From a virus (taxonomy: Duplodnaviria > Caudoviricetes), in IMG/VR virus record IMGVR_UViG_2788500220_000014, positions 1 to 64,000 of that record: a stretch of 64,000 bases of DNA; one strand, 5' to 3'. Each line of letters opens with the position of its first letter. Positions within the stretch are counted from its first letter, which is position 1. Below are positions 52,974-63,912 of the stretch, one piece after another. A model generated the notes under the pieces. It made no database searches. It saw only the letters and a list, made by a program, of their open reading frames with translations, and was not told the origin of the DNA. The translations under genes were made by a program, and so were the position numbers.

Positions 52974-53117
52974 TTCATTTAATAGCTTTGCACGGTATAT
53001 TGAAAACTGTTGGTACGATTGGCCTCCCTGGACTAGTTCAAGCTCTTCATCGCTTAGTTCTGTTACATCTTTAAGATCTTCTTGTGCGGCCTGAGGCTTA
53101 TTTGTTTTCATCTTCAT
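52926..53117 (-). CDS. Peptide with double-glycine (bacteriocin/RiPP-type) leader
   Basis: TELSDEELELVQGG followed by a 31-aa basic core. Confidence 0.6.
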   Translation of the reverse strand: MKMKTNKPQAAQEDLKDVTELSDEELELVQGGQSYQQFSIYRAKLLNESGIKLNRYRIFETKM

Positions 53118-53349
53118 CTTCTTTTTGAGACTTTTTGCTCCACTTATCTTTGGGCATTAATTTTTCAATTCTGAAGCTTAAAGCTTTCATACCATTAACA
53201 GTAGGCTGTCCAAGGTCATCTACACCTATTTCTTTAACTGTTGTTCTTTTATTTTTAAAACGACCGGTAAGAATAATGTCACCCTTTTCTAAATCTAGCT
53301 CTAACATTTCCCTTATTATCATTCTTAATTGACGCTCAGTAGTCTTCAT
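53098..53349 (-). CDS. Leader-array gene (MKTTERQLRMIIRE) with SH3-like payload
   Basis: Shared leader; LEKGDII motif. Confidence 0.75.
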   Translation of the reverse strand: MKTTERQLRMIIREMLELDLEKGDIILTGRFKNKRTTVKEIGVDDLGQPTVNGMKALSFRIEKLMPKDKWSKKSQKEDEDENK

Positions 53350-53872
53350 TGTGGTGCCTAATTGTAAGAGCATGTTCCAATGATTGCTCAAGTTCTTTAG
53401 TAATCCCTGTCAGAGCGTTGTATATTGCACCTAGTACTTTAGGGTCGGGCTCACCATGTGGACCAGCATATCCGAGCTCTGCTACAAGGTCCATTATTTG
53501 TTGATATGCATCCTCATACGTAGTCTGATCTGCACCATCGTAGCCATATGGCCCTTTTTTGAGCTCTTCTTTGATATTTTTAATACGCCTGGAATATTGC
53601 TTAATTGCATTTTCAGCAGCATAAAGGTACGGGCGGCTATAGTCTTTAGCAGGCATGCCCTCTTTTTCCCTAATACTATCTATATCATTTCGAAGTGAAA
53701 GAAGATCTTCTATAGAGACATTAATATCATCGCTAGCGCCCATGGGACTAAGAAGCTGACCGTTTATAAAAGACACCAGCCTATCTTCACGCGATTCAAG
53801 ACTTTGAAGGCTTGGCATGCCCACCATCGATTCTCTAATAATTTTCCTAAGCTGTCGTTTTGTAATCTTCAT
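53336..53872 (-). CDS. Leader-array gene (MKITKRQLRKIIRES)
   Basis: Shared leader. Confidence 0.8.
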   Translation of the reverse strand: MKITKRQLRKIIRESMVGMPSLQSLESREDRLVSFINGQLLSPMGASDDINVSIEDLLSLRNDIDSIREKEGMPAKDYSRPYLYAAENAIKQYSRRIKNIKEELKKGPYGYDGADQTTYEDAYQQIMDLVAELGYAGPHGEPDPKVLGAIYNALTGITKELEQSLEHALTIRHHNEDY

Positions 53873-54169
53873 TTACCTGCGGTTCCTTGTTGCCGGTGAA
53901 GTATGATGTTCTTCAGGGGGAATGGTCTTAGACTGCCTAACTTCTCTAGCGACAACCTCTAGAGCATGTGCAATACTCTCAACATATATAGGATTAATCC
54001 ATACATCTTCGCCGATCATATCCTGAGAAAATTCTTCCTCGATGTAGTTCCAAACTCCATTTTGTACGCCACGTGAGATGCCCTCTTCAACATCCGGGCT
54101 CATCTCAGAAAGAAGGCGCGCTTTCTCTTCTTTAATGATTCTTCTTAGTTGTCTCTTTGTGGTTCTCAT
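53873..54169 (-). CDS. Leader-array gene (MRTTKRQLRRIIKEE)
   Basis: Shared leader. Confidence 0.8.
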   Translation of the reverse strand: MRTTKRQLRRIIKEEKARLLSEMSPDVEEGISRGVQNGVWNYIEEEFSQDMIGEDVWINPIYVESIAHALEVVAREVRQSKTIPPEEHHTSPATRNRR

Positions 54170-54210
54170 AATGTTATTTCCTTAAGTCCCGGTGCATCCC
54201 AACTGGGTGG

Positions 54211-55005
54211 TTACCGGCCTGCTGCCCGGGTGAAAATCTTGATTATCTCTGATAGCGCATGCGCTTCTTCATCATTGGCCGGAGGTTCATAAAAATAATA
54301 TTCTCCGATCCACCGAGTTCCGTGTGGGCCTGGAGAAGGGGAGACAGCTTCGGCCATGGCTAAAATAATCTTGAGTACCCCTACCTGGGTCGGCTCCGGC
54401 GGATCCTCTGGTAAATCTTTACTGAAACTGCCACCATAACCTTCGGTGCTCATAGTATATTCAACGGCTTTAGAGATGTACCCTAGAATTCCACTGGCCC
54501 CATGTCGCTCTAAAACATCCTGGTATCGGTTATCCTGAGGGCCTTTGAATGCTTTATGAAGATGAAAATCGAATTGCCTTGCAGTTGCTAGATCTGTCTG
54601 ATATTGATCCACATCAGCCTTGCCGCGTCCAGAATCCCACCAGCTCCCCTTGAACCATGCAGGTGTAGATATACTCTTCCTACCCTTCTTCCTGCCCTTC
54701 TTCCTGCCCTTCTTCCGAGGAAGAGTGGCAGCCAAAGTATCTAACCAGCCTGGTTGATTATTGGATATCCAGTCTAATTGTTCATCCCAATCCAGGTCTT
54801 GTTCATATCCCGGGATTTTTTCCCATAAACCTGCATTAACTAAGTCATCTGCCAAAGCATTAGCGCCGTCGGTCATTGAATGCATATCCGATATTTCATC
54901 ATACTTTGCATATAACCTATCATATGCTGGCCCGCCACCCTCTGAAATGACCCGGGCCACTTCTTCTTTAATGATTCTTCGCAGTTGGCACTTGGTAATT
55001 TTCAT
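54211..55005 (-). CDS. Leader-array gene (MKITKCQLRRIIKEE) with an internal RKKG x3 repeat
   Basis: Shared leader; 12-nt tandem repeat at about 54676-54717. Confidence 0.8.
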   Translation of the reverse strand: MKITKCQLRRIIKEEVARVISEGGGPAYDRLYAKYDEISDMHSMTDGANALADDLVNAGLWEKIPGYEQDLDWDEQLDWISNNQPGWLDTLAATLPRKKGRKKGRKKGRKSISTPAWFKGSWWDSGRGKADVDQYQTDLATARQFDFHLHKAFKGPQDNRYQDVLERHGASGILGYISKAVEYTMSTEGYGGSFSKDLPEDPPEPTQVGVLKIILAMAEAVSPSPGPHGTRWIGEYYFYEPPANDEEAHALSEIIKIFTRAAGR

Positions 55006-55406
55006 TATACTTTATCCCTTTTCGAAAGTACTGATACTCCAATTGCAGAATATATTTCCGGACCTACATGGTGATTAACTTGTTTAAGCTTTATACCCTG
55101 CCAATTAATCGGGGGCTCCAAATAATCAGTCGGAGGAAGTGCTGCACCCTCCGCTTTTAAAGCTTTCCATGCTATGTCCCTATCAGACTTGTCATCAAAA
55201 ATAACCATGTTTCGAATAGAGAACATCGTTTGCCCGCCTTTGCCTCTTTCTGATCGTTGTCCGGATTTTGGAAGGTTATTTAGAGGCTGGCCACCAAAGC
55301 GGTCTGCTATAGCAACAGTTGCAGACCCTACATCCCATTGATTTTCTGAAAGCATTTCAAGTTCTTCTTTAATGATTCGCCTGAGTTGTCTTTGAGTAAT
55401 TTTCAT
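55005..55406 (-). CDS. Leader-array gene (MKITQRQLRRIIKEE)
   Basis: Shared leader; ATGA overlap. Confidence 0.8.
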   Translation of the reverse strand: MKITQRQLRRIIKEELEMLSENQWDVGSATVAIADRFGGQPLNNLPKSGQRSERGKGGQTMFSIRNMVIFDDKSDRDIAWKALKAEGAALPPTDYLEPPINWQGIKLKQVNHHVGPEIYSAIGVSVLSKRDKV

Positions 55407-56389
55407 TTTAAAATCCCAGCCAACCTTTGCCATTTTTCGATAAGTAGATCATCCCTGGTTTTTCTTGACTCTGTTTTTGTTGCATTTCCAAGAGCATTTC
55501 CAAGAGCAGTAAGAAACTTAAGTGTGCGTTTCTCATCACCAAGAGATTGTAGATCAACTTGTCCTGCAGTGCCTAGTGATGCTGAAGGATCGTTCAACAT
55601 CGTTGCTGCCCACCGATGATGGCCATCAAGGATCTCTCCGTTCGTACCTGCCCAAGCATCTAGATCACCCCCTGCAATTTGGTTTTTTGGGTTCATTGCC
55701 ATCCCTAGGGCCTTGTATATAAGAATATTTGATTGGGTTGGTATAGCATCGCTTGCAGGAACTGATCCACCCTTAACAACCTTGATATCATCATCATCTT
55801 TATTCCCATCATTTTCTTCATGGCCGGATGTCATAAATTCTTTAGATTCAGCGTCATCCATACCTACAAATGTATTGGGCGCAGGAGGTACATTAAACTT
55901 TCCCCTCTTAAGATTTACTTTTCTTTCCTTAAGGGCCCTGATGTTTGATACATCATTCTTTTGGACGGCTTCATTGTGTGTGTCAATATTAAACTTGCCT
56001 CCAGGCGAAAGAGCATCAACTACTTGATCGACTGAACCTTTGGCATCTTCCGGGCCAGGAAGAAACGGCATGACAGACTTAGGTAATCCAGAAGTTGGTA
56101 TTTTTGATGCCAACGTTTTGATTCTAGAAGCAACTTCCTCAGGTCCAATTTTTTCTACCCACTCCTTTGCCTGTGCACCGTTAGTAGCGAACCACTGGCC
56201 TTGAGTTGATTTAACAATTGGGGCATTATCATCTCCGGAAAGTAGCTGATTTACTATTTCGATTGGGTCAACATCTTTAACATTTGTTGACTTATCAACT
56301 GCGTCGCCCCGAGGAGCATCACCAATTTTACCGGTTGATTTCTCCTCTTCTTCAAATAAGATACTTACTAAGCTTGGAATTTTTTTCAT
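55403..56389 (-). CDS. ParB/Srx-like domain protein embedded in the leader array
   Basis: AIPTQSNI...ILDGHHRWAA ParB-N motif; C-terminal EKWQRLAGIL. Confidence 0.78.
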   Translation of the reverse strand: MKKIPSLVSILFEEEEKSTGKIGDAPRGDAVDKSTNVKDVDPIEIVNQLLSGDDNAPIVKSTQGQWFATNGAQAKEWVEKIGPEEVASRIKTLASKIPTSGLPKSVMPFLPGPEDAKGSVDQVVDALSPGGKFNIDTHNEAVQKNDVSNIRALKERKVNLKRGKFNVPPAPNTFVGMDDAESKEFMTSGHEENDGNKDDDDIKVVKGGSVPASDAIPTQSNILIYKALGMAMNPKNQIAGGDLDAWAGTNGEILDGHHRWAATMLNDPSASLGTAGQVDLQSLGDEKRTLKFLTALGNALGNATKTESRKTRDDLLIEKWQRLAGILK

Positions 56390-56859
56390 CCTGATGTCCT
56401 CATCGGTCCTTCAATTATTTCATTTAAAAATGCCACAAAATTCTTAGCACTTTTCTTATCGTGGATGCTAAGTGCTTTTTTATCATCGACATATATTTCC
56501 ATGGTCAGACCATCCCATGTCCACGCAGCCTTAATATTACCAATCCCGATTATGTCCTCTTCCCTAACTGGATCCCGCGGGCCAGATTGTTCTTTTTTCT
56601 TTTTGCCCCAAAACTCAGATAATTTACGAATTTCTTCTTTAATAAGTGCAGAAGGATCATGACGGCGCATACCAGAATCCCACCTAACCGAAATTTGCCT
56701 GTCTCTTTTATTTGATTTTGCAACAACACGGCCAACACCAAGGTGCGCATCGTCCTTATGGCGAACGATATCACCTACCGTGATGTTAAACGTAGGCCTA
56801 GACTCTGAGAATAATTCTTCTCTAATAATCTTTCTTAGTTGATGCTTGGTAATTTTCAT
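56386..56859 (-). CDS. Leader-array gene (MKITKHQLRKIIREE) with SH3-like payload (ITVGDIVRH)
   Basis: Shared leader plus a second LIKEEI..LSE internally. Confidence 0.8.
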   Translation of the reverse strand: MKITKHQLRKIIREELFSESRPTFNITVGDIVRHKDDAHLGVGRVVAKSNKRDRQISVRWDSGMRRHDPSALIKEEIRKLSEFWGKKKKEQSGPRDPVREEDIIGIGNIKAAWTWDGLTMEIYVDDKKALSIHDKKSAKNFVAFLNEIIEGPMRTSG

Positions 56860-56860
56860 C

Positions 56861-57205
56861 TTACCATTCTCCGGTGTCATTGCCATCTTCATCTAGCATT
56901 ACAGCATATTCTTCAAGCTCTTCATATGTTGTAGCCATAGTAGTAGAAAAACTATTCGGATATTCATCAGATGCAGCAGCTGACATTATATGGCCATACC
57001 AATAGCGGAACGCCCTGGCTTCAATCGACCTATCTGGTACTAGCTTGGTAATCTCGAGCGCTTCTTCTGTTAGTACTTGAATCTCTTGCATGATATCCTT
57101 AAATCGATATAGATCATTCTCATCTAGGCCCTCAAATTGCTCTTTAAGAATACGAGATTTTTCCTCACGAATTATTCTTCTTAACTGTCGTTTTGTAATT
57201 TTCAT
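56861..57205 (-). CDS. Leader-array gene (MKITKRQLRRIIREE)
   Basis: Shared leader. Confidence 0.8.
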   Translation of the reverse strand: MKITKRQLRRIIREEKSRILKEQFEGLDENDLYRFKDIMQEIQVLTEEALEITKLVPDRSIEARAFRYWYGHIMSAAASDEYPNSFSTTMATTYEELEEYAVMLDEDGNDTGEW

Positions 57206-57507
57206 TATCGTAACCCAAACTCTATAAGCTCTTCAGCATCATCAATAATCGTGCCAAGATAATCTGACAACTCTGGGAACAGTTCATAAAGAGATTCTTC
57301 CACCTCTTCGCGATCGCCTCCACCCTTAAAGATATTAACAGCTGTATCCCTGGCTTCCATTTCTATGTCCATGATCTTGGGTTCCCAGCCACCCTCAGGT
57401 TCTCCATACATGGTACCATCATGTGGATTAGCCTCACGATCAATAAAGAAATCTTTCTCAATAGTTTCCTTGATGATTCTTCTTAGTTGCTTTTTTGTAA
57501 TTTTCAT
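57205..57507 (-). CDS. Leader-array gene (MKITKKQLRRIIKET)
   Basis: Shared leader. Confidence 0.8.
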   Translation of the reverse strand: MKITKKQLRRIIKETIEKDFFIDREANPHDGTMYGEPEGGWEPKIMDIEMEARDTAVNIFKGGGDREEVEESLYELFPELSDYLGTIIDDAEELIEFGLR

Positions 57508-57508
57508 T

Positions 57509-58297
57509 TTAAAGTTCCCTGTATATATCTGCTAATGCTTGCTTCAAATACTTTCGGCCATTTTCCCCTAGCTCAGCAAATAATTGCGATAAAATCTCCT
57601 TTACAGAATCCTTATTGTTCGCTGCGTCAATAGCAACTAGAAGAGGTTGTACGCCACTTTTATCTAGTGCAATGTCTGCTTTTTTTCCTGCAGCAGTCTT
57701 TGATTCTGCACCGGCATCAGCAGAAGCTTCATCTTCAGGATTTTCTTTAAGAATTTCTTCTCTAATAATTTGCCGTAAGCGGCTTTTCGTTATATTCATT
57801 GCTTTATTCTCCCATTGTCTTTGTGCACTTTTTGTTTTTAGACGTTTACCCATTCCAGATCTCTGAGGTACTTTTTCATAGTCTAAATCTAATCCAGGTA
57901 CCTGTAGGGCTGCTAGCTCCTGTCGCTCTTTTTCCCACTCTGCTTCACGCTCAGCATTAAATGCATCATCTTCTGCCATAGCTTCAGCTTCACGATCTAA
58001 GTCATCAATCGCCGCTTGAACTTGTGCGACTGTCTCAAACCTTGCCCAACGTGGTCGGATACCATGAAGCGATTTGAATGCGTCTGAGTACGTCTGAGAT
58101 AAGATCTCAAAGGCTAACTCTTCTCCAGTTGTAATACCTCTCTCTTCCCAAAATGACTGATCTGTAACAAGGGTCATACCATATAATCCTGGGCCAGCTT
58201 GGGCATTAATTTTCTCAGCTTCTTCCTGTGCAGTAGGTGCAAAGCCTGACATAGCTTCACGAATTATCTTCTCTAGTTTTTTGCGACTAATTCTCAT
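57509..58297 (-). CDS. Leader-array gene with two leader copies (MRISRKKLEKIIRE; internal MNITKSRLRQIIREE at 57799)
   Basis: Seen in the translation. Confidence 0.8.
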   Translation of the reverse strand: MRISRKKLEKIIREAMSGFAPTAQEEAEKINAQAGPGLYGMTLVTDQSFWEERGITTGEELAFEILSQTYSDAFKSLHGIRPRWARFETVAQVQAAIDDLDREAEAMAEDDAFNAEREAEWEKERQELAALQVPGLDLDYEKVPQRSGMGKRLKTKSAQRQWENKAMNITKSRLRQIIREEILKENPEDEASADAGAESKTAAGKKADIALDKSGVQPLLVAIDAANNKDSVKEILSQLFAELGENGRKYLKQALADIYREL

Positions 58298-58306
58298 GTT
58301 ATCATC

Positions 58307-59683
58307 CTAATCATAATATGGCATCATCGGTGGACCCTGGGGCGGCCGGCGGCCCAAGGTTTTTCCTGCTCTTCTGTTCAGGAAGTCTAAAAATTTTGGA
58401 ACATCAATCTGATCTTTTGGAACAGCCACCTCACCAACACCATGTGATATACTATCTGGTGCGGAAAGCCTTATATACCTCTTATACTCTTTCCATCCTA
58501 GGGTCTTTAAATCCTCAGGGGTGACCGTGGATGTAAAATGGTTTGCCAATAGTTCTAGCCATTCTTTATCTGGGTCAGATGTTATAGCACTACTTTGTCG
58601 AGCTTTTTCTATTTTCCACGCTTCATTTTCTATTGCATCAGTGTCACGACGTGTCACACCATTGCTGTACAATAGATCTGCTAGTTCACTATCATCTAAA
58701 AATACTGGTAAATCAGACCACCCAAATATTGGCAATAATATCTCTGCAGCCTCCTTATATTTTTTTGCTTTGGCAAGTGGAACTACGACAGCTGCAATTT
58801 CATCATCACTATTCTTTGCAGTAAGGGTTTCATTAATGATCCCTGCTATCTTTAAAATCCTATTATATGAAGCGGCAATCGTTTCTTTAGCAGGATCTTC
58901 ACCTGATATCCATTCTCCATATTTCTTAATATATTTTGAGACTCCGTTGCTAATTCCTGTGTATACTGTATCAGCAACAATATCCTTGAATATCTGTTTA
59001 CTAGGCCGGCTATTACCATACCCAAAACTATAAGAGCTCTTATTTTCATCTGGCAACGAGCTATATAAATCCGCAACTTCCTTACTGTCAGCCCACTCGG
59101 TATAGCCTGATGCGATATCTGCTGAGGCATCTTGCCCGTATTGAAGCACATAATCTCCGGGGCTATCCCATTGTTGGTAGCTGCTTCCATCTTGCCACAT
59201 CTTAGGATTATTATAGGCATCATGCATAGTATCCATGGCCCAATCTTCTCCGCCGGCTTCAGCATCATTCAATATTTTTTCTTTGAGAGCTTCATATTTT
59301 TCTTCAGCTTCTTCTTCCTGGCGCTTTTCTTCAGCTTCAGCTTCATCTTCCCTGGCAAAATGCGCATCCCAGTCGTAGTCGGGATCTGACTCATCTGTAA
59401 TCGGGCCTTTTTCTTCAGGCTCTATATACCACTGACTGTCTGGGTACCACTCTTGCTCTTCCATGGATTCACCAGCTGGAATCATCATTTCAAATGATTC
59501 CGGATCTTCAACATCTGTCTCTACCTGATCACCTGGTTCGAGCTCATCCAAGAACATCTCCATATCAGCAGTCGTTTGAAATTCTGGAACAGTATATCCT
59601 GCATCATACTCTTTAAGAAGTCTTTTTGCACGGATCACTTCTTCCTTGATGATTCTTTTCAGTTGTCGTTTTGTGATTTTCAT
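58307..59683 (-). CDS. Large acidic leader-array gene (MKITKRQLKRIIKEE) with internal NRILKIAGIINE
   Basis: GAGGA RBS before ATG 59683. Confidence 0.8.
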   Translation of the reverse strand: MKITKRQLKRIIKEEVIRAKRLLKEYDAGYTVPEFQTTADMEMFLDELEPGDQVETDVEDPESFEMMIPAGESMEEQEWYPDSQWYIEPEEKGPITDESDPDYDWDAHFAREDEAEAEEKRQEEEAEEKYEALKEKILNDAEAGGEDWAMDTMHDAYNNPKMWQDGSSYQQWDSPGDYVLQYGQDASADIASGYTEWADSKEVADLYSSLPDENKSSYSFGYGNSRPSKQIFKDIVADTVYTGISNGVSKYIKKYGEWISGEDPAKETIAASYNRILKIAGIINETLTAKNSDDEIAAVVVPLAKAKKYKEAAEILLPIFGWSDLPVFLDDSELADLLYSNGVTRRDTDAIENEAWKIEKARQSSAITSDPDKEWLELLANHFTSTVTPEDLKTLGWKEYKRYIRLSAPDSISHGVGEVAVPKDQIDVPKFLDFLNRRAGKTLGRRPPQGPPMMPYYD

Positions 59684-59981
59684 TATATTCCTCTTCCGGT
59701 ATGCTACTTTCGACGTCATCAGCCAAGCCACGGAGGTCGGCAGCTAACTCATGCCATTCCGACGGATTCGTTTGATCCATTGCTTGATTTATTATGTCAG
59801 CAAGGGTATGCCATAGTGGTTGATCATAAGAGCGGCCTTTAATCTTAACGCTTGAAAGGCTTCCTCGTTGAGCATCCATCTTTGCTGCTGCGATCCCCAT
59901 ATCAGCAGGAGTCATTTCATTTATTAGCTTAGAATGTTCTTCTTTAATGATTCTTTTTAATTGTCGTTTTGTGATTTTCAT
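59613..59981 (-). CDS. Leader-array gene (MKITKRQLKRIIKEE)
   Basis: Shared leader; 3' end runs ~70 nt into the next gene in another frame. Confidence 0.78.
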   Translation of the reverse strand: MKITKRQLKRIIKEEHSKLINEMTPADMGIAAAKMDAQRGSLSSVKIKGRSYDQPLWHTLADIINQAMDQTNPSEWHELAADLRGLADDVESSIPEEEYNENHKTTTEKNHQGRSDPCKKTS

Positions 59982-60736
59982 TAGTCTAACCTTACGTCAA
60001 TAATATCTGGCACCATACGCTTAAGTTCTCGTAAACCAGCTGGATACATACTTCCAGGCATCTCAACTACTATGTCGATTGCCGTACCGTTATCACCTAG
60101 TTCCATTACAACACCTGACATTTCGTCACCAGGTTGTATTCCGCCATATTCATCTTCATAATCTTCCCATGCATCGAAGCCCATATAGAATGTACCACTG
60201 CTTGGGCTGTAGCCAAGATAAGACTCCTGCCCTTCGCTATATCCGGATCGTTGAAGATACTGCCAGGCCTCACCAACACCGGGGCCCTCATAAAATACCT
60301 GATATACGTTTACTCCATCAACCATTACACCTTCAGGCCAGGCGGCACTAACTTGTTCTTCGGTAACATCTGGATCCGTAAGTTCGGCCGTGATACCACT
60401 CATATTACTTTCAGAAAGCCCTTCTTCTGATTCTGCAGCTGCCTTAAGGGCAGCTTTAGCTCTTGCGCGCCGGGTTTCAGAAGCTTTTCGGGCCCGATAA
60501 TCCGCGGGGGACTCATCACCATACGGATTTTCTCGGCCGTAATAGTCAGCCTGTCTCTCGTTCCGGGTCCGTTGCGCTTTACGTGCACGATAGTCTGCTG
60601 GAGACTCGTCACCATATTCGTTGTCAGGGCCATGGAGTCGATCGTTTAATCTTCTTTGAGCCTCAGGTGAACGTTCAACAAGTCTTGAGATCTCTTCTTT
60701 GATTATTCTTCTTAGTTGTTTTTGTGTAATTTTCAT
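59981..60736 (-). CDS. Leader-array gene (MKITQKQLRRIIKEE) with duplicated YGDESPADYRARKA
   Basis: Shared leader; ATGA overlap. Confidence 0.8.
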   Translation of the reverse strand: MKITQKQLRRIIKEEISRLVERSPEAQRRLNDRLHGPDNEYGDESPADYRARKAQRTRNERQADYYGRENPYGDESPADYRARKASETRRARAKAALKAAAESEEGLSESNMSGITAELTDPDVTEEQVSAAWPEGVMVDGVNVYQVFYEGPGVGEAWQYLQRSGYSEGQESYLGYSPSSGTFYMGFDAWEDYEDEYGGIQPGDEMSGVVMELGDNGTAIDIVVEMPGSMYPAGLRELKRMVPDIIDVRLD

Positions 60737-61179
60737 TCTTTCTGCATCCACTCGTCCCCCCAATCGAGGTCGTCCATCCATGAGTCATCGCCGGCGTCTT
60801 CGTCGTCTTCGTCGTCATCAAAGGTCCCAAGAGCCAATAGGCTATCCCTTAGGTCAGCTGGAGCAGACCCATCATCTATAGCCCAATTAATCTCATCCTC
60901 TACATCGGTGGGATCAGGGCTGCCATCATCAGTCATTTGATCAATACGTTGAGATAGAGGGTGATCTGGGCCCAATACATCCCTTATGTCTTCCCACATA
61001 TAGTCAACAGTGTCAGTCCGGCTCTCATACTGTTCCCAATGTGCATCGGCAGCCAGAAAATAAGGGTGCCTCTTCGGCTTCTTCTTCTTTTTGTTTTTCT
61101 TTTTCTTTTTCTCAATTAGAATATTTCTAGAAATTTCTTCCTTGATGATTCTTTTGAGTTGGCTCTTTGTGATTTTCAT
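60733..61179 (-). CDS. Leader-array gene (MKITKSQLKRIIKEE), poly-Lys then very acidic
   Basis: Shared leader. Confidence 0.8.
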   Translation of the reverse strand: MKITKSQLKRIIKEEISRNILIEKKKKKNKKKKKPKRHPYFLAADAHWEQYESRTDTVDYMWEDIRDVLGPDHPLSQRIDQMTDDGSPDPTDVEDEINWAIDDGSAPADLRDSLLALGTFDDDEDDEDAGDDSWMDDLDWGDEWMQKE

Positions 61180-61457
61180 AGTCTTATCCCCAGGTTCCGA
61201 GCGATTCTTTCAAGCATTCCCTCAAGTTCCTCCGAAGCATCCATTAAATCATAGTCATCGGTACCATATGCTTCTTGCAGTTTATCAGCAAACTCAAACA
61301 TTGCATTTAAAAAGCCCTTTGTCCCATCATGTAATCTCCAGTAATCCTCACCTGATACTGCCATGGACTCATTTTGAAGTGAGGCTCTCTCTTTTTTACG
61401 GTCGCTTGATATTTCTTCCTTGATGATTCTTTTCAGTTGTCGTTTTGTGATTTTCAT
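61176..61457 (-). CDS. Leader-array gene (MKITKRQLKRIIKEE)
   Basis: Shared leader. Confidence 0.8.
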   Translation of the reverse strand: MKITKRQLKRIIKEEISSDRKKERASLQNESMAVSGEDYWRLHDGTKGFLNAMFEFADKLQEAYGTDDYDLMDASEELEGMLERIARNLGIRL

Positions 61458-61458
61458 T

Positions 61459-61695
61459 TTAAAATCCTCCTGCCCTAATTGTATCTGCTATATCGCGATC
61501 TGGTATGCCCATTGCTCGACAGCGCTCAATGCATGCTGTGAGATCGTCTAACGCCTCGAGTTGATCTAGGCTTCGATTTACATATAACTCTTCATCGACG
61601 TCATTGTATTGTTCACCATAACGAGGGGCCTCTTTTAGCAATTTAAGCTTCTCTTCCTTAATGATCCGTTTAAGCTGTCTCTTGGTTATTCTCAT
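61459..61695 (-). CDS. Leader-array gene (MRITKRQLKRIIKEE)
   Basis: Shared leader at ATG 61695. Confidence 0.78.
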   Translation of the reverse strand: MRITKRQLKRIIKEEKLKLLKEAPRYGEQYNDVDEELYVNRSLDQLEALDDLTACIERCRAMGIPDRDIADTIRAGGF

Positions 61696-61696
61696 T

Positions 61697-61798
61697 CTAA
61701 CATTGCCCTTTACAGCTAGTGCAACCGCAACAACCGCAACAGCAACAACAATGACTGTCATTAAATAAATTTGCTAATCTGTGTAATACCTTTTTCAT
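61697..61798 (-). CDS. 33-aa Cys-rich peptide MKKVLHRLANLFNDSHCCCCCGCCGCTSCKGQC
   Basis: AAAGGAG RBS; fills the gap between two array genes; hand-translated. Confidence 0.7.
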   Translation of the reverse strand: MKKVLHRLANLFNDSHCCCCCGCCGCTSCKGQC

Positions 61799-61834
61799 TT
61801 TTAATCTCCTTTTATTGTTGATTGGTAACCTTCA

Positions 61835-62212
61835 TTATACCGGGGTTCCTTCAATTAACCATGTAAATAGATGCCATGGCTCACTTTCATTCCAGTATTC
61901 AGAATATCGATCAGCCCAATCTTCAAAAGCATCAGTAAAATCTTTATTAAGCGCTGCCTTATCTGGTGCGATTGTGCCAGATTCCAGGCCTGATATTACG
62001 TCGGTAAATTGGGATAGATCTCTCTTCATATCATCATACCATGTGGTTGACTTATCTTGTGGATTGATCTGTTCAAACCCATACATCTGATTAACAGTTT
62101 CGTGCCAGGTATCAGGCTCGCGAGGGCCCTGATATGGGTCGTCGACACTATCAAACCACGGGTCAAGTTCTTCTTTGATGATCTGCTTAAGCCGGCTTTT
62201 TGTAATCTTCAC
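61835..62212 (-). CDS. Leader-array gene (MKITKSRLKQIIKEE, GTG start)
   Basis: GGAGG RBS; shared leader. Confidence 0.78.
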   Translation of the reverse strand: MKITKSRLKQIIKEELDPWFDSVDDPYQGPREPDTWHETVNQMYGFEQINPQDKSTTWYDDMKRDLSQFTDVISGLESGTIAPDKAALNKDFTDAFEDWADRYSEYWNESEPWHLFTWLIEGTPV

Positions 62213-62213
62213 T

Positions 62214-62570
62214 TTAATATCCCTCCGGGCGGGCCCATGCAATTATTTCGTCATCCGACATATCTTGTGCCATTACACTCGATGCCTTTGCTGCGGCTAC
62301 AAATTTCCTTGAGTCTCTTTTTGCAAGAGAACCTGGTGAGATCGAAATATCCATCTCAGCAAAGTCTCTAAACCCTAATTCATATGCCATATGATCCAGG
62401 TCAAGTATTCCGATATCCAATGCCTCAGAAAACTCGTACCAATTGGAATCCTTTGGGGGATAGCCATTCACCGGTGATGGTGGGCCGTGCGTACCAGTTC
62501 GATACTCATTAACAATATGGGATACTTCTTCCTTGATGATCCGCTTAAGCTGTCTTTTGGTTATTCTCAT
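62214..62570 (-). CDS. Leader-array gene (MRITKRQLKRIIKEE)
   Basis: Shared leader. Confidence 0.8.
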   Translation of the reverse strand: MRITKRQLKRIIKEEVSHIVNEYRTGTHGPPSPVNGYPPKDSNWYEFSEALDIGILDLDHMAYELGFRDFAEMDISISPGSLAKRDSRKFVAAAKASSVMAQDMSDDEIIAWARPEGY

Positions 62571-62571
62571 T

Positions 62572-62991
62572 TTACCATGCTCCTGGTGTACCTTGAGGAA
62601 AACTGTATGCCTTACCATACTCATCTTGTTCATCGAGGATCATAATAATATCCTCAAATGATCGGAGACCAGGAAGAGTATGATCGTATGCAGGTAAATT
62701 AAACAGATTATGGCTTCGGGCCCAGCGTACAAACTCTGACATATCTGTAGGTTGTGGACTTAATTCATATTCAGGTGTACCATAATTCGGATGTAAAGAA
62801 ATTGTATAATCATCAACCACCTTGCCGGTGTCATCATATACGGTTACAGATGCCGCATCTTCACTCATGCCTCGATAGTTGAGGATGTCATATTCACTGT
62901 GCGCGCCGGCTGGAATGTTTGACGATTCGTGAAGGAGGCGGGATACTTCTTCTTTAATGAGCCGCTTAAGCTGTCTTTTGGTTATTCTCAC
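62572..62991 (-). CDS. Leader-array gene (MRITKRQLKRLIKEE)
   Basis: Shared leader and shared RBS ATAGGAGACAACACG. Confidence 0.8.
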   Translation of the reverse strand: MRITKRQLKRLIKEEVSRLLHESSNIPAGAHSEYDILNYRGMSEDAASVTVYDDTGKVVDDYTISLHPNYGTPEYELSPQPTDMSEFVRWARSHNLFNLPAYDHTLPGLRSFEDIIMILDEQDEYGKAYSFPQGTPGAW

Positions 62992-63002
62992 CGTGTTGTC
63001 TC

Positions 63003-63326
63003 CTATCGATACATATCGGGGTTTGATAATACGTCTTCTAACTCAGCAATCTTATCATCGATTGACATCATACCAAACTCAGAATCATTGACTGTAGTAG
63101 CACCCATTGCTCTTTCTGCTTCAAGCGCCTCGATTTGATCTGCCTCGAATCCCGGGGCAGAAAGTATCTTTCGGTCACCTATGATTACACCATCAAATGC
63201 TGTACCTGAACTATAAGTTACATTAACGACATTCTCACGCAGCTTACGCCGGACCTTGGCCTCAGCAATCAGCTTAGCCTTCTCTTCTTTGATTATTCGT
63301 TTAAGCTGTCTCTTGGTTATTCTCAT
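63003..63326 (-). CDS. Leader-array gene (MRITKRQLKRIIKEEKAKLIAE)
   Basis: Shared leader and RBS. Confidence 0.8.
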   Translation of the reverse strand: MRITKRQLKRIIKEEKAKLIAEAKVRRKLRENVVNVTYSSGTAFDGVIIGDRKILSAPGFEADQIEALEAERAMGATTVNDSEFGMMSIDDKIAELEDVLSNPDMYR

Positions 63327-63343
63327 CGTGTTGTCTCCTATGA

Positions 63344-63769
63344 CTATTGTATTCTATATACCGCATCTAAAGTTGAGTTGTCAACGTCAACCCAGTCACC
63401 ACCATCCCACATCATATATGCATCTGGGCCGGCGCTATATGGCGAGTTCATATCATCCCACCAGTGAACCAGCGTGCCATTAACAATAAAGAATTCAGAT
63501 TCTGATAATAGTTGATTCTGCGTTGGAACTTCAGTTTCGAAGTCCCCAGGGGAATGATCTGCACCTAATAGCCAATTCAAAAGATTTTTCTCTAACATCA
63601 TCATGGCATCTGGGAACATAGATCTAGCATCTTCTAACGTTACCTGTCTATTGCCCGGGGCATTCTCACATAATTTACGCCTGACCAATCGTCGGACCTT
63701 GGTCTCAGCAACCAGCTTGGCTTTTTCTTCTTTGATGATCCGCTTAAGCTGTCTCTTGGTTATTCTCAC
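63344..63769 (-). CDS. Leader-array gene (MRITKRQLKRIIKEEKAKLVAE)
   Basis: Shared leader and RBS. Confidence 0.8.
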   Translation of the reverse strand: MRITKRQLKRIIKEEKAKLVAETKVRRLVRRKLCENAPGNRQVTLEDARSMFPDAMMMLEKNLLNWLLGADHSPGDFETEVPTQNQLLSESEFFIVNGTLVHWWDDMNSPYSAGPDAYMMWDGGDWVDVDNSTLDAVYRIQ

Positions 63770-63912
63770 CGTGTTGTCTCCTATGACTAATCATATAATA
63801 GAGACTCTCACGACACCAGCTTATGTGCGATAAATTTTTGGATTGTGTGAGTCTCATTTTATTTTCTCCTCGTGGGCACAGACTTTACAATATCCCACGC
63901 TTTTCACTAAGT

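What the first reader, a model, noticed from the sequence alone, without database searches (positions are those of the whole stretch)
59639..63786. Leader DNA plus RBS is copied almost identically between cassettes, suggesting recombination-driven payload shuffling
Seen: 45 nt (ttcttccttgatgattcttttcagttgtcgttttgtgattttcat) are identical at 59639-59683 and 61413-61457, including synonymous positions. The last three genes share the upstream RBS segment ATAGGAGACAACACG(A/G)TGAGAATAACCAA, and the last two also share TAGTC before it and the KAKL.AE.KVRR codons after it. Synonymous-site identity next to unrelated payloads points to recent duplication or gene conversion of the leader module. Inference: the leaders serve as homologous-recombination anchors for gain, loss and exchange of cargo, like an integron without an integrase.
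Basis: partly seen in the sequence, partly recalled or inferred. Interest (0 to 1): 0.72.

Follow-up and report, generated by a model that had tools for sequence, protein, structure and literature searches.

The report
Leader-anchored gene-cassette swapping in phage
In a large uncultured marine T4-type phage, 20 neighbouring genes all begin with the same short tag, and comparison with relatives shows that the unrelated gene bodies behind the tag have been swapped with the break points sitting in the tag DNA, a coding-sequence version of the cassette shuffling already known from T4-type phages.

Summary
Leaders at 59639-59683 and 61413-61457 are identical over 45 nt. ATAGGAGACAACACG occurs three times in the window, only before the last three genes.

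The stretch is the promoter-proximal end of a 20-gene array (53098-63769, minus strand). It lies on a T4-type phage contig binned with a bacterium. Every gene starts M[KR]ITKRQL[KR]RIIKEE; the bodies are unrelated.

Most leader similarity is not recent copying. Across 335 leaders from about 43 viral contigs, synonymous codon identity is 0.55 between genomes and only 0.47 inside this window. Two subsets are identical by descent: g10=g14, and a local "block B" dialect in g15 and g17-g20.

The recombination reading gains direct comparative support:
- The g19 body is 244/250 identical to a metagenome relative, while its leader (34/45) and upstream DNA differ.
- One conserved upstream-plus-leader module carries four different bodies in five genomes.
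- A second phage pair (L009/L015) shows bodies replaced exactly between leaders.

No integrase is present; a RecA/UvsX-like gene is.

The closest known cases are PeSL-mediated shuffling in T4-type phages and the T4 capsid-targeting sequence. This scan has already noted similar leader arrays on other DNA, in at least 92 genomes. The leader's function and the mechanism are inferred.

The parts
53098..63769 (-). Whole array: 20 tightly packed genes (g1..g20, g20 transcribed first), each starting M[KR]ITKRQL[KR]RIIKEE. It also holds one leaderless 328-aa gene (55403-56389) and one internal leader copy at 57799.
   Evidence: The motif occurs nowhere else in the 4.9-Mb bin.
59639..59683 (-). Leader (codons 1-15) of g10, identical over 45 nt to the g14 leader.
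61413..61457 (-). Leader of g14, the second copy of the 45-nt identity. With g11 (59937-59981) and g13 (61135-61179) it forms 'block A' (41-45/45), which lies close to the family codon consensus.
   Evidence: The best match outside the window is 43/45.
61651..61695 (-). g15 leader, block B dialect (AGA ATA ACC AAR AGA CAG CTT AAR CGG).
62168..62212 (-). g16 leader, a possible chimera. The 5' 21 nt are unlike block B (7 mismatches to g20); the 3' 24 nt are block B (1 mismatch).
   Evidence: Fisher p 0.017, uncorrected; suggestive only.
62526..62570 (-). g17 leader, block B.
62947..63006 (-). g18 leader (62947-62991, block B) plus the shared RBS segment ATAGGAGACAACACG (62992-63006).
   Evidence: Homology to the relative L082 stops at residue 19.
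63001..63250 (-). g19 body, intergenic DNA and the g18 RBS: 244/250 identical to metagenome contig L082, with a 182-nt perfect run (63066-63247). Leader modules of only about 75% identity bound it on both sides.
63243..63346 (-). g19 5' module: TAGTC plus RBS (63327-63346), block B leader (63282-63326) and the KAKLIAEAKVRR extension. It matches the FIRST gene of L082 at 44/45 and 28/30, not the leader of L082's own g19 orthologue (34/45).
63659..63789 (-). g20 5' module: TAGTC plus RBS (63770-63789), block B leader (63725-63769) and a 22-codon extension (63659-63724). The extension type matches the one on L082's g19 orthologue (27/30). Homology to the first gene of L082 ends at residue 37.
63770..63901 (-). 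Conserved island upstream of the array. It is 83-89% identical in four metagenome contigs whose flanks on both sides differ, and it contains two hairpin-forming repeats. It is a candidate promoter or regulatory cassette of the array.
   Evidence: The sigma-70 scan did not call a promoter in it.
61812..61835 (-). Seven-codon leader-like relic (MKVTNQQ*) directly after g16, a possible scar of a lost cassette.
   Evidence: (family D1, 60%).

Best explanation
The stretch is the promoter-proximal half of a hyperplastic cassette array in a large marine T4-type phage. Each cassette encodes a basic 15-22-residue N-terminal leader fused to an unrelated, mostly acidic body. The leader is kept mainly by selection on the peptide. 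Most likely it is a cleavable capsid-targeting propeptide like the T4 CTS, because it carries I-K-E and L-x-E sites of the kind cut by the gp21 prohead protease. The same 45-110 nt of leader DNA, sometimes with its RBS, is repeated at the head of every cassette. The phage's own homologous recombination can therefore cross over between leaders of different cassettes or of co-infecting relatives. The unit exchanged runs from inside one leader to inside the next: body, then the next RBS, then the start of the next leader. Repeated exchange has produced the mosaic seen here, including the g10=g14 identity and the spread of the first gene's RBS-plus-leader module ('block B') over g15 and g17-g20. 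Shown: the repeats, their statistics, and the mosaic structure and break points in relatives. Inferred: that homologous recombination is the mechanism, and what the leader peptide does.
For: Phage setting. The window contig has a tmRNA, a tubulin-like gene and PhoH; the rest of contig C25 has DnaJ. gp21 protease, gp23 and a RecA/UvsX-like gene are on contig C13 of the same bin. Four IMG/VR relatives carry leader arrays and gp21 on one contig. Peptide-level constraint. Entropy in leader codons 2-15 is 0.44 bits at codon positions 1 and 2 against 1.11 at position 3. Family-wide, upstream DNA is not conserved apart from an RBS. Identity by descent of subsets. Leader-bounded exchange, case 1 (window vs L082). 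The g19 body is 244/250 identical, but its leader is 34/45 and its upstream DNA is unrelated. The g19 leader matches L082's first gene instead, at 44/45. Both leader-body combinations exist as exact proteins, each on 6 contigs from several sources. Case 2. The same upstream island and block B leader carry four different bodies in five genomes. Case 3 (L009 vs L015). With flanks 87-90% identical, two bodies are replaced; homology ends at about codon 14 of a leader and resumes at the next start codon. Case 4. Contigs from two runs of another study place the g17 body directly after g13, with an intact leader at the joint. Baseline. Leaders are normally inherited with their bodies: synonymous identity is 0.86 when bodies are at least 95% identical. 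The g19 pair, which I counted by hand from the sequences at 4 of 11, is therefore an outlier. There is no tyrosine recombinase on the phage contig and no enrichment of promoter- or terminator-like sites inside the array.
Against: No single-molecule data: all relatives are short-read assemblies, and repeats of this kind break or can mis-join assemblies. Logan contigs of the source run end exactly at the g10 and g14 leaders. Near-identical genomes keep identical arrays (62 of 65 spacings), so exchange is not frequent on short time scales. Leaders inside the window are more heterogeneous than random family sets, which argues against ongoing homogenisation. Break points at leaders could partly reflect survival of only in-frame, functional junctions. 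Perfect matches between diverged leaders are short, often 10-20 nt. Capsid targeting and cleavage have not been measured, and the link between contigs C25 and C13 rests on binning and on relatives.
Confidence: 0.68

Rival explanations
1. Selection only: the leader DNA is similar purely through amino-acid constraint plus a leader-specific codon preference. The apparent mosaics are metagenome assembly chimeras formed at the repeated leaders.
For: The family-wide floor of synonymous identity is 0.55-0.58, even between unrelated genomes. The window's leaders are below that floor. k=31 contigs of the source run break at the identical leaders.
Against: Shared non-coding RBS segments and rare-codon haplotypes confined to neighbouring genes are not explained by peptide or codon selection. 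A 182-nt perfect run lies beside about 75%-identical leaders. Both g19 leader-body combinations were assembled independently, each on 6 contigs from JGI, Logan, ENA, NCBI and Tara. The L009/L015 replacements lie inside 2-kb collinear flanks.
Confidence: 0.1
2. Exchange is real but not homology-guided. Bodies are inserted or replaced by illegitimate recombination, or by nuclease-stimulated repair (for example by homing-type nucleases). Break points appear at leaders only because other junctions destroy the tag or the reading frame and are lost.
For: Junctions lie at different depths (after codon 15, about 23, or 37). Perfect identity between exchanging leaders is short. A leaderless gene whose translation shows a DGHHR motif, which I recall as ParB/sulfiredoxin-like, sits in the array (55403-56389).
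Against: In L009/L015 homology runs continuously through each leader and stops only at its 3' edge, as expected for crossovers within homology. Exchanged units carry the next cassette's RBS and leader start. The ParB-like gene has no Pfam or PHROG hit, and no homing endonuclease was seen in the array.
Confidence: 0.15
3. The conserved leader nucleotides are a cis-acting RNA or DNA signal, for example an operator for a RegA-like translational repressor or a translation enhancer. The nucleotide conservation is the selected trait and the peptide is secondary.
For: Leader codon choice is position-specific (GAA 94% at codon 14, GAG 73% at codon 15, AGA about 85% at codons 9-10, ATC about 60%). The N-terminal codon usage of other genes of this phage does not explain it (ATC 14%, AGA 30%).
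Against: Third positions still vary 2.5 times more than first and second positions. Same-peptide leaders differ by 5-6 nt on average. The block B dialect changes 8-10 nt while keeping the peptide.
Confidence: 0.07

Closest known systems
PeSL-mediated modular shuffling in hyperplastic regions of T4-type phages (Arbiol et al. 2010, PMC2839356; Comeau et al. 2014, PMC4122927)
   Same: Short conserved sequences are repeated between non-essential genes of a T4-type phage. Insertions, deletions and replacements between relatives have their break points in these repeats. Recombination is done by the phage's own homologous machinery, with no site-specific recombinase.
   Different: PeSLs are non-coding cassettes of an early promoter plus a terminator stem-loop. 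Here the repeat is the coding N-terminus, with or without its RBS, of each gene. No promoter- or terminator-like sites are enriched between cassettes. PeSL mini-circles were shown experimentally; nothing of that kind could be tested here.
T4 capsid-targeting sequence (CTS) on internal proteins IPI, IPII, IPIII and Alt (PMC3012670, PMC9026906)
   Same: A short N-terminal tag is shared by otherwise unrelated proteins of a T4-type phage and ends in an L/I-x-E site for the gp21 prohead protease. The genes are variable between relatives.
   Different: T4 has a handful of such proteins with a 10-residue tag. This phage has 20 in one array, with a 15-22-residue basic tag of unrelated sequence. Packaging and cleavage are not shown.
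Integrons
   Same: An array of promoterless cassettes sits behind one conserved upstream region, with very high turnover of cassette content.
   Different: There is no IntI-type integrase on the phage contig and no attC-like imperfect inverted repeats. The recombination substrate is a direct coding repeat, and promoter-proximal insertion polarity is not shown.
Orphan toxin-module displacement in CDI and Rhs systems
   Same: A conserved coding segment ahead of a variable domain serves as homology for swapping the variable part.
   Different: Those are C-terminal toxin domains of large bacterial proteins with immunity genes. Here whole small phage proteins sit behind an N-terminal tag.

Membership tests
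PeSL-type modular shuffling (T4-type hyperplastic region) | Short conserved sequence repeated between variable, non-essential genes | tested here: met
   20 to 22 copies of a leader-coding repeat of about 45-50 nt lie in 10.7 kb. The bodies are unrelated.
PeSL-type modular shuffling (T4-type hyperplastic region) | The repeat consists of an early sigma-70-like promoter plus a terminator stem-loop | tested here: not met
   The repeat is coding. Promoter-like sites: 23 found against 27 expected. Terminator-like sites: 4 found against 9 expected, none on the coding strand between cassettes.
PeSL-type modular shuffling (T4-type hyperplastic region) | Insertion, deletion and replacement break points between relatives coincide with the repeats | tested here: met
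   Window vs L082, L009 vs L015 and the X4/X5 contig. By my own tally of these outputs, 11 of about 12 homology-block ends lie in leader modules.
PeSL-type modular shuffling (T4-type hyperplastic region) | Mini-circles formed by recombination between neighbouring repeats | not testable with these tools
   Only contigs, not raw reads, were available for the runs that hold this DNA.
T4 capsid-targeting sequence / internal proteins | N-terminal tag shared by otherwise unrelated proteins | tested here: met
T4 capsid-targeting sequence / internal proteins | The tag ends in an L/I-x-E gp21 cleavage motif | tested here: met
   I-K-E at residues 12-14 in most leaders; L at residues 19/20 and E at 22 predominate in the extended consensus. 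The motif definition is from PMC9026906. Only sequence presence was tested; cleavage was not.
T4 capsid-targeting sequence / internal proteins | The phage encodes a gp21-type prohead protease | tested here: met
   PF03420 hits contig C13 of the same bin. It also lies on the same contig as the arrays in four relatives.
T4 capsid-targeting sequence / internal proteins | Sequence similarity of the tag to the T4 CTS | not tested
From memory the tags differ in length and sequence.
T4 capsid-targeting sequence / internal proteins | Proteins are packaged in the head and the tag is removed | not testable with these tools
   This needs virion proteomics.
Integron | IntI tyrosine recombinase next to the array | tested here: not met
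   The PF00589 hits are all on other contigs of the bin (C3, C5, C10, C11, C17, C27), none on C25.
Integron | attC imperfect inverted repeats at cassette ends | tested here: not met
   Many cassette junctions are stop/start overlaps or gaps of a few nt. The only repeat family is the direct leader repeat (where only direct repeats were searched).

The most novel reading that the evidence does not exclude
The array is a self-contained 'tag-and-swap' gene-capture platform. One short coding element both addresses proteins to the capsid and serves as the recombination site. New bodies enter preferentially at the first leader, beside a conserved mobile promoter island, much as cassettes enter at attI/Pc in integrons. 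This would explain why the first gene's RBS-plus-leader module has spread over the five or six promoter-proximal cassettes. It would also explain why leader codons stay alike across unrelated genomes: a pan-genomic pool of injected effectors is kept exchangeable by selection on the DNA as well as on the peptide.
Probability: 0.2. Interest if true: 0.8.

Novelty: new variant of a known kind. Interest (0 to 1): 0.55.

Why it matters
If the reading holds, T4-type marine megaphages maintain large, fast-changing libraries of tagged accessory proteins. In the contigs sampled here there are 83 body families plus 127 singletons, and the ten window bodies tested have no Pfam or PHROG family. The tag's own DNA is what makes the library exchangeable between co-infecting phages. 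That extends the PeSL idea from regulatory cassettes to a coding element. It gives a sequence rule for finding candidate virion-packaged, possibly injected, proteins in metagenomes. It also marks such arrays as places where short-read assemblies are fragile and need long reads.

Tried and rejected
- GenBank phages gave no relative: tblastn with g14 and with the tubulin-like protein found nothing useful.
- The block B leader and RBS patterns and a g19 body pattern found nothing in IMG/VR. A block B pattern found nothing in genome contigs.
- Pfam and PHROGs gave no family for ten bodies or for the leaderless gene.
The 12 contigs holding the two g19 protein forms, one of them 176,782 nt long, could not be examined.
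- Read laying: the many 'joints' with sides of 32-47 nt at 85% likeness are leader-only matches from other phages and were not used. Parts of the array without cover in X3, and the small shares of X4-X7, are not evidence either way.
- Resampling real leaders from 20 genomes gave an identical pair in 15% of draws. I set this null aside because loci were found with a consensus-peptide pattern. I used the comparison conditioned on identical peptides instead.
- A chimeric reading of leader L082_1816 was not significant.
- Folding the upstream island gave no energy beyond shuffles (z -0.9).
- No paper contains the leader peptide string.
- Complex prediction and structure prediction were not used. 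The partner of a CTS is not known, and enzyme-substrate pairs are poor tests.
- The idea that leaders are homogenised by pervasive gene conversion was rejected. Leaders track their bodies, and the window is more heterogeneous than random.


Full report
**What is there**

Between 53098 and 63769 the minus strand carries 20 tightly packed genes. I call them g1 to g20; g20 is transcribed first. Each starts with M[KR]ITKRQL[KR]RIIKEE. The motif occurs nowhere else in the 4.9-Mb assembly.

The window is contig C25 of a bin (101 kb, GC 0.41, against 0.37-0.38 for most of the bin). The window carries a tmRNA, a tubulin-like gene, PhoH-PIN and PrkA/SpoVR/DUF444. The rest of C25 carries DnaJ and a CCA-adding enzyme. 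Contig C13 (GC 0.40) holds a T4-type prohead protease, gp23 and a RecA/UvsX-like gene.

A degenerate leader pattern found 68 stretches in IMG/VR, many on 170-290-kb viral contigs. Four of these relatives carry leader arrays and gp21 on one contig. So this is a large, uncultured marine T4-type phage binned with a bacterium.

With the leader removed, the 20 bodies show no pairwise BLASTP similarity apart from an 18-residue extension shared by g19 and g20. Of the 20, 17 are acidic, while the leader is strongly basic. The ten tested have no Pfam or PHROG family.

**The observation**

All three sequence statements are correct.
- The 45-nt identity is between the g10 and g14 leaders.
- ATAGGAGACAACACG is shared before g18, g19 and g20: 3 occurrences in 64 kb against 0.04 expected.
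- g19 and g20 additionally share TAGTC and the extension codons.

**How much of the identity needs a special explanation**

I collected 335 distinct leader genes from about 43 viral contigs. The peptide consensus is MKITKRQLRRIIKEEKA[KR]LL.E.

Third codon positions vary 2.5 times more than first and second positions. Family-wide, upstream DNA is not conserved except for an RBS. The peptide is therefore the main target of selection.

Codon choice is nevertheless strongly position-specific (AAA ATC ACA AAA AGA/CGA CAA CTT AGA AGA ATC ATC AAA GAA GAG). The synonymous codon identities are:

| Comparison | Value |
|---|---|
| Leaders of different genomes | 0.547 |
| Leaders within a genome (family-wide) | 0.580 (permutation z 5.9) |
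| Expected from this phage's codon usage | 0.385 |
| Leaders within this window | 0.47 (z -2.7) |

N-terminal codon usage of the phage's other genes does not explain the preference (ATC 14%, AGA 30%). So leader DNA is more alike than peptide plus codon bias predicts, but this holds across the whole family and not especially within this window.

Leaders normally travel with their bodies. Synonymous identity is 0.86 when bodies are at least 95% identical, 0.74 at 80-95%, and then falls to a floor of about 0.58.

Two subsets of the window exceed the family background:
- **g10=g14.** Exact identity among same-peptide leaders with unrelated bodies occurs in 1 of 3907 pairs between genomes and 2 of 199 within genomes.
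- **Block B (g15, g17-g20).** The haplotype ATA-ACC is in 5 of 21 window leaders against 1 of 314 elsewhere. CGG at codon 10 is 4/21 against 1/314.

Leader similarity also falls with distance along the array (r -0.375, permutation p below 0.0002). Lys at residue 9 is found in 10 of the 11 promoter-proximal genes and none of the 9 distal ones.

**Evidence for exchange at leaders**

The block B RBS pattern found four metagenome contigs, L081 to L084.

- **One module, four bodies.** In all four contigs the first array gene has the same upstream island (window 63770-63901, 83-89% identical) and a block B leader. The bodies differ: four different bodies in five genomes. Homology ends after codon 15, about 23, or 37. 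The body of L083's first gene is homologous to the 13th cassette of L081.
- **The g19 mosaic.** Its body, the following intergenic DNA and the g18 RBS (63001-63250) are 244/250 identical to L082, with a 182-nt perfect run. Its leader is only 34/45 identical to the leader of the L082 orthologue, and the upstream DNA is unrelated. Beyond the g18 leader the bodies are again unrelated.
- **Reshuffled modules.** The g19 leader and extension match L082's first gene instead (44/45 and 28/30). The extension on L082's g19 orthologue is the type found on the window's g20 (27/30). The upstream-plus-leader, extension and body modules are thus combined differently in the two phages.
- **Independent assembly.** Both g19 protein forms exist exactly in the 15-billion-protein collection, each on 6 contigs from several sources. 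This argues against a one-off assembly chimera.
- **Different cassette content.** L082 keeps g19 and a g14 orthologue in order, but has one different cassette where the window has g15-g18, and an extra cassette before g19.
- **An independent pair.** L009 and L015 have flanks 87-90% identical over 2 kb. Between conserved cassettes two bodies are replaced. Homology ends at about codon 14 of a leader and resumes at the next start codon, twice.
- **Another study.** Contigs from two runs place the g17 body (88% identical) directly after g13 (94%), with an intact 15-codon leader at the joint. A 133-nt contig in the source sample carries the L082-like junction after g19.

By my own tally of these outputs, 11 of about 12 homology-block ends lie in leader modules, which I estimate occupy under a fifth of the array.

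Near-identical genomes keep identical arrays (62 of 65 spacings). More diverged genomes share few bodies and not always in the same order.

**Mechanism**

The exchanged unit runs from inside one leader to inside the next. This is what crossovers between direct repeats predict, and what circle excision and re-integration would also give.

The phage contig has no tyrosine recombinase, and the phage encodes a RecA/UvsX-like protein. Known T4 biology makes homologous recombination at short repeats plausible. Arbiol et al. (PMC2839356) and Comeau et al. (PMC4122927) showed exactly this for non-coding promoter-terminator cassettes (PeSLs). Here the repeat is coding, and no promoter- or terminator-like sites are enriched between cassettes.

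The leader peptide most likely acts like the T4 capsid-targeting sequence. It is an N-terminal tag on unrelated proteins, it ends in I-K-E or L-x-E, and a gp21 protease is present (PMC3012670, PMC9026906). This is inference only.

The family-wide leader-specific codon preference remains unexplained. It could reflect selection on the RNA or recombinational homogenisation across the phage population.

**Caveats**

- All relatives are short-read assemblies, and such repeats are assembly-fragile. Contigs of the source run break exactly at the two identical leaders.
- Break points at leaders may be enriched by survival of functional junctions.
- The link between C25 and C13 rests on binning and on relatives.

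**Standing**

This scan has already recorded leader-tagged arrays in at least 92 other genomes, including one read as swappable cassettes. No paper containing the leader string was found. I rate this a new variant of known kinds (T4 CTS and internal-protein loci; PeSL shuffling). It is of moderate interest, with unusually clean comparative evidence for the break points.

Noticed in passing
window 63770-63901: A 130-nt island upstream of the array is 83-89% conserved in four metagenome contigs although the DNA on both sides differs. It holds two hairpin-forming repeats (GTGGG...CCCAC and GAGACTCACAC...GTGAGAGTCTC). It is a candidate mobile promoter or regulatory cassette, and it is unique in the window.
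   Followed up: partly
window 61697-61835: The gap between g16 and g15 holds a 7-codon leader-like relic (MKVTNQQ*). It also holds a 33-aa ORF with an AAGGAG RBS that ends in a Cys-rich run (HCCCCCGCCGCTSCKGQC). In another frame a hydrophobic stretch (MTVIVVAVAVVAVALAVKGNVR) could extend g15 upstream of its leader.
   Followed up: partly
window 59613-59683: The g11 reading frame has no stop before g10 and runs 70 nt through the g10 RBS and leader in another frame. tblastn hits of the g11 tail to other loci are just leader DNA read out of frame.
   Followed up: partly
window 57509-58297 (internal leader at 57799): g9 contains a second, internal leader copy (MNITKSRLRQIIREE), as if two cassettes had been fused.
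   Followed up: no
window 55403-56389: This is the only leaderless gene in the array (328 aa). Its translation contains a DGHHR motif that I recall as ParB/sulfiredoxin-like, but it has no Pfam or PHROG hit.
   Followed up: partly
family-wide (loci L003-L080): Leader codon choice is position-specific and shared by unrelated genomes (for example GAA 94% at codon 14 but GAG 73% at codon 15; ATC about 60% where other genes of this phage use 14%). Neither the peptide nor general codon bias explains it.
   Followed up: partly
whole bin G000: Phage contigs C25 and C13 (GC 0.40-0.41) are binned with a bacterial genome of GC 0.37-0.38. About ten further contigs have GC 0.43-0.46, and one of them (C33) has its own RecA-like gene, so the bin may hold a third entity.
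   Followed up: no
L009:4880-6010 and L015:2060-3275: An unrelated pair of IMG/VR contigs shows alternating conserved and replaced cassette bodies with break points exactly at leader edges. It is a clean second example of the same process.
   Followed up: yes
window 59655-59668 and 61429-61442: k=31 contigs of the source run end exactly inside the two identical leaders. Arrays of this kind are likely to be fragmented or mis-joined in short-read assemblies.
   Followed up: partly
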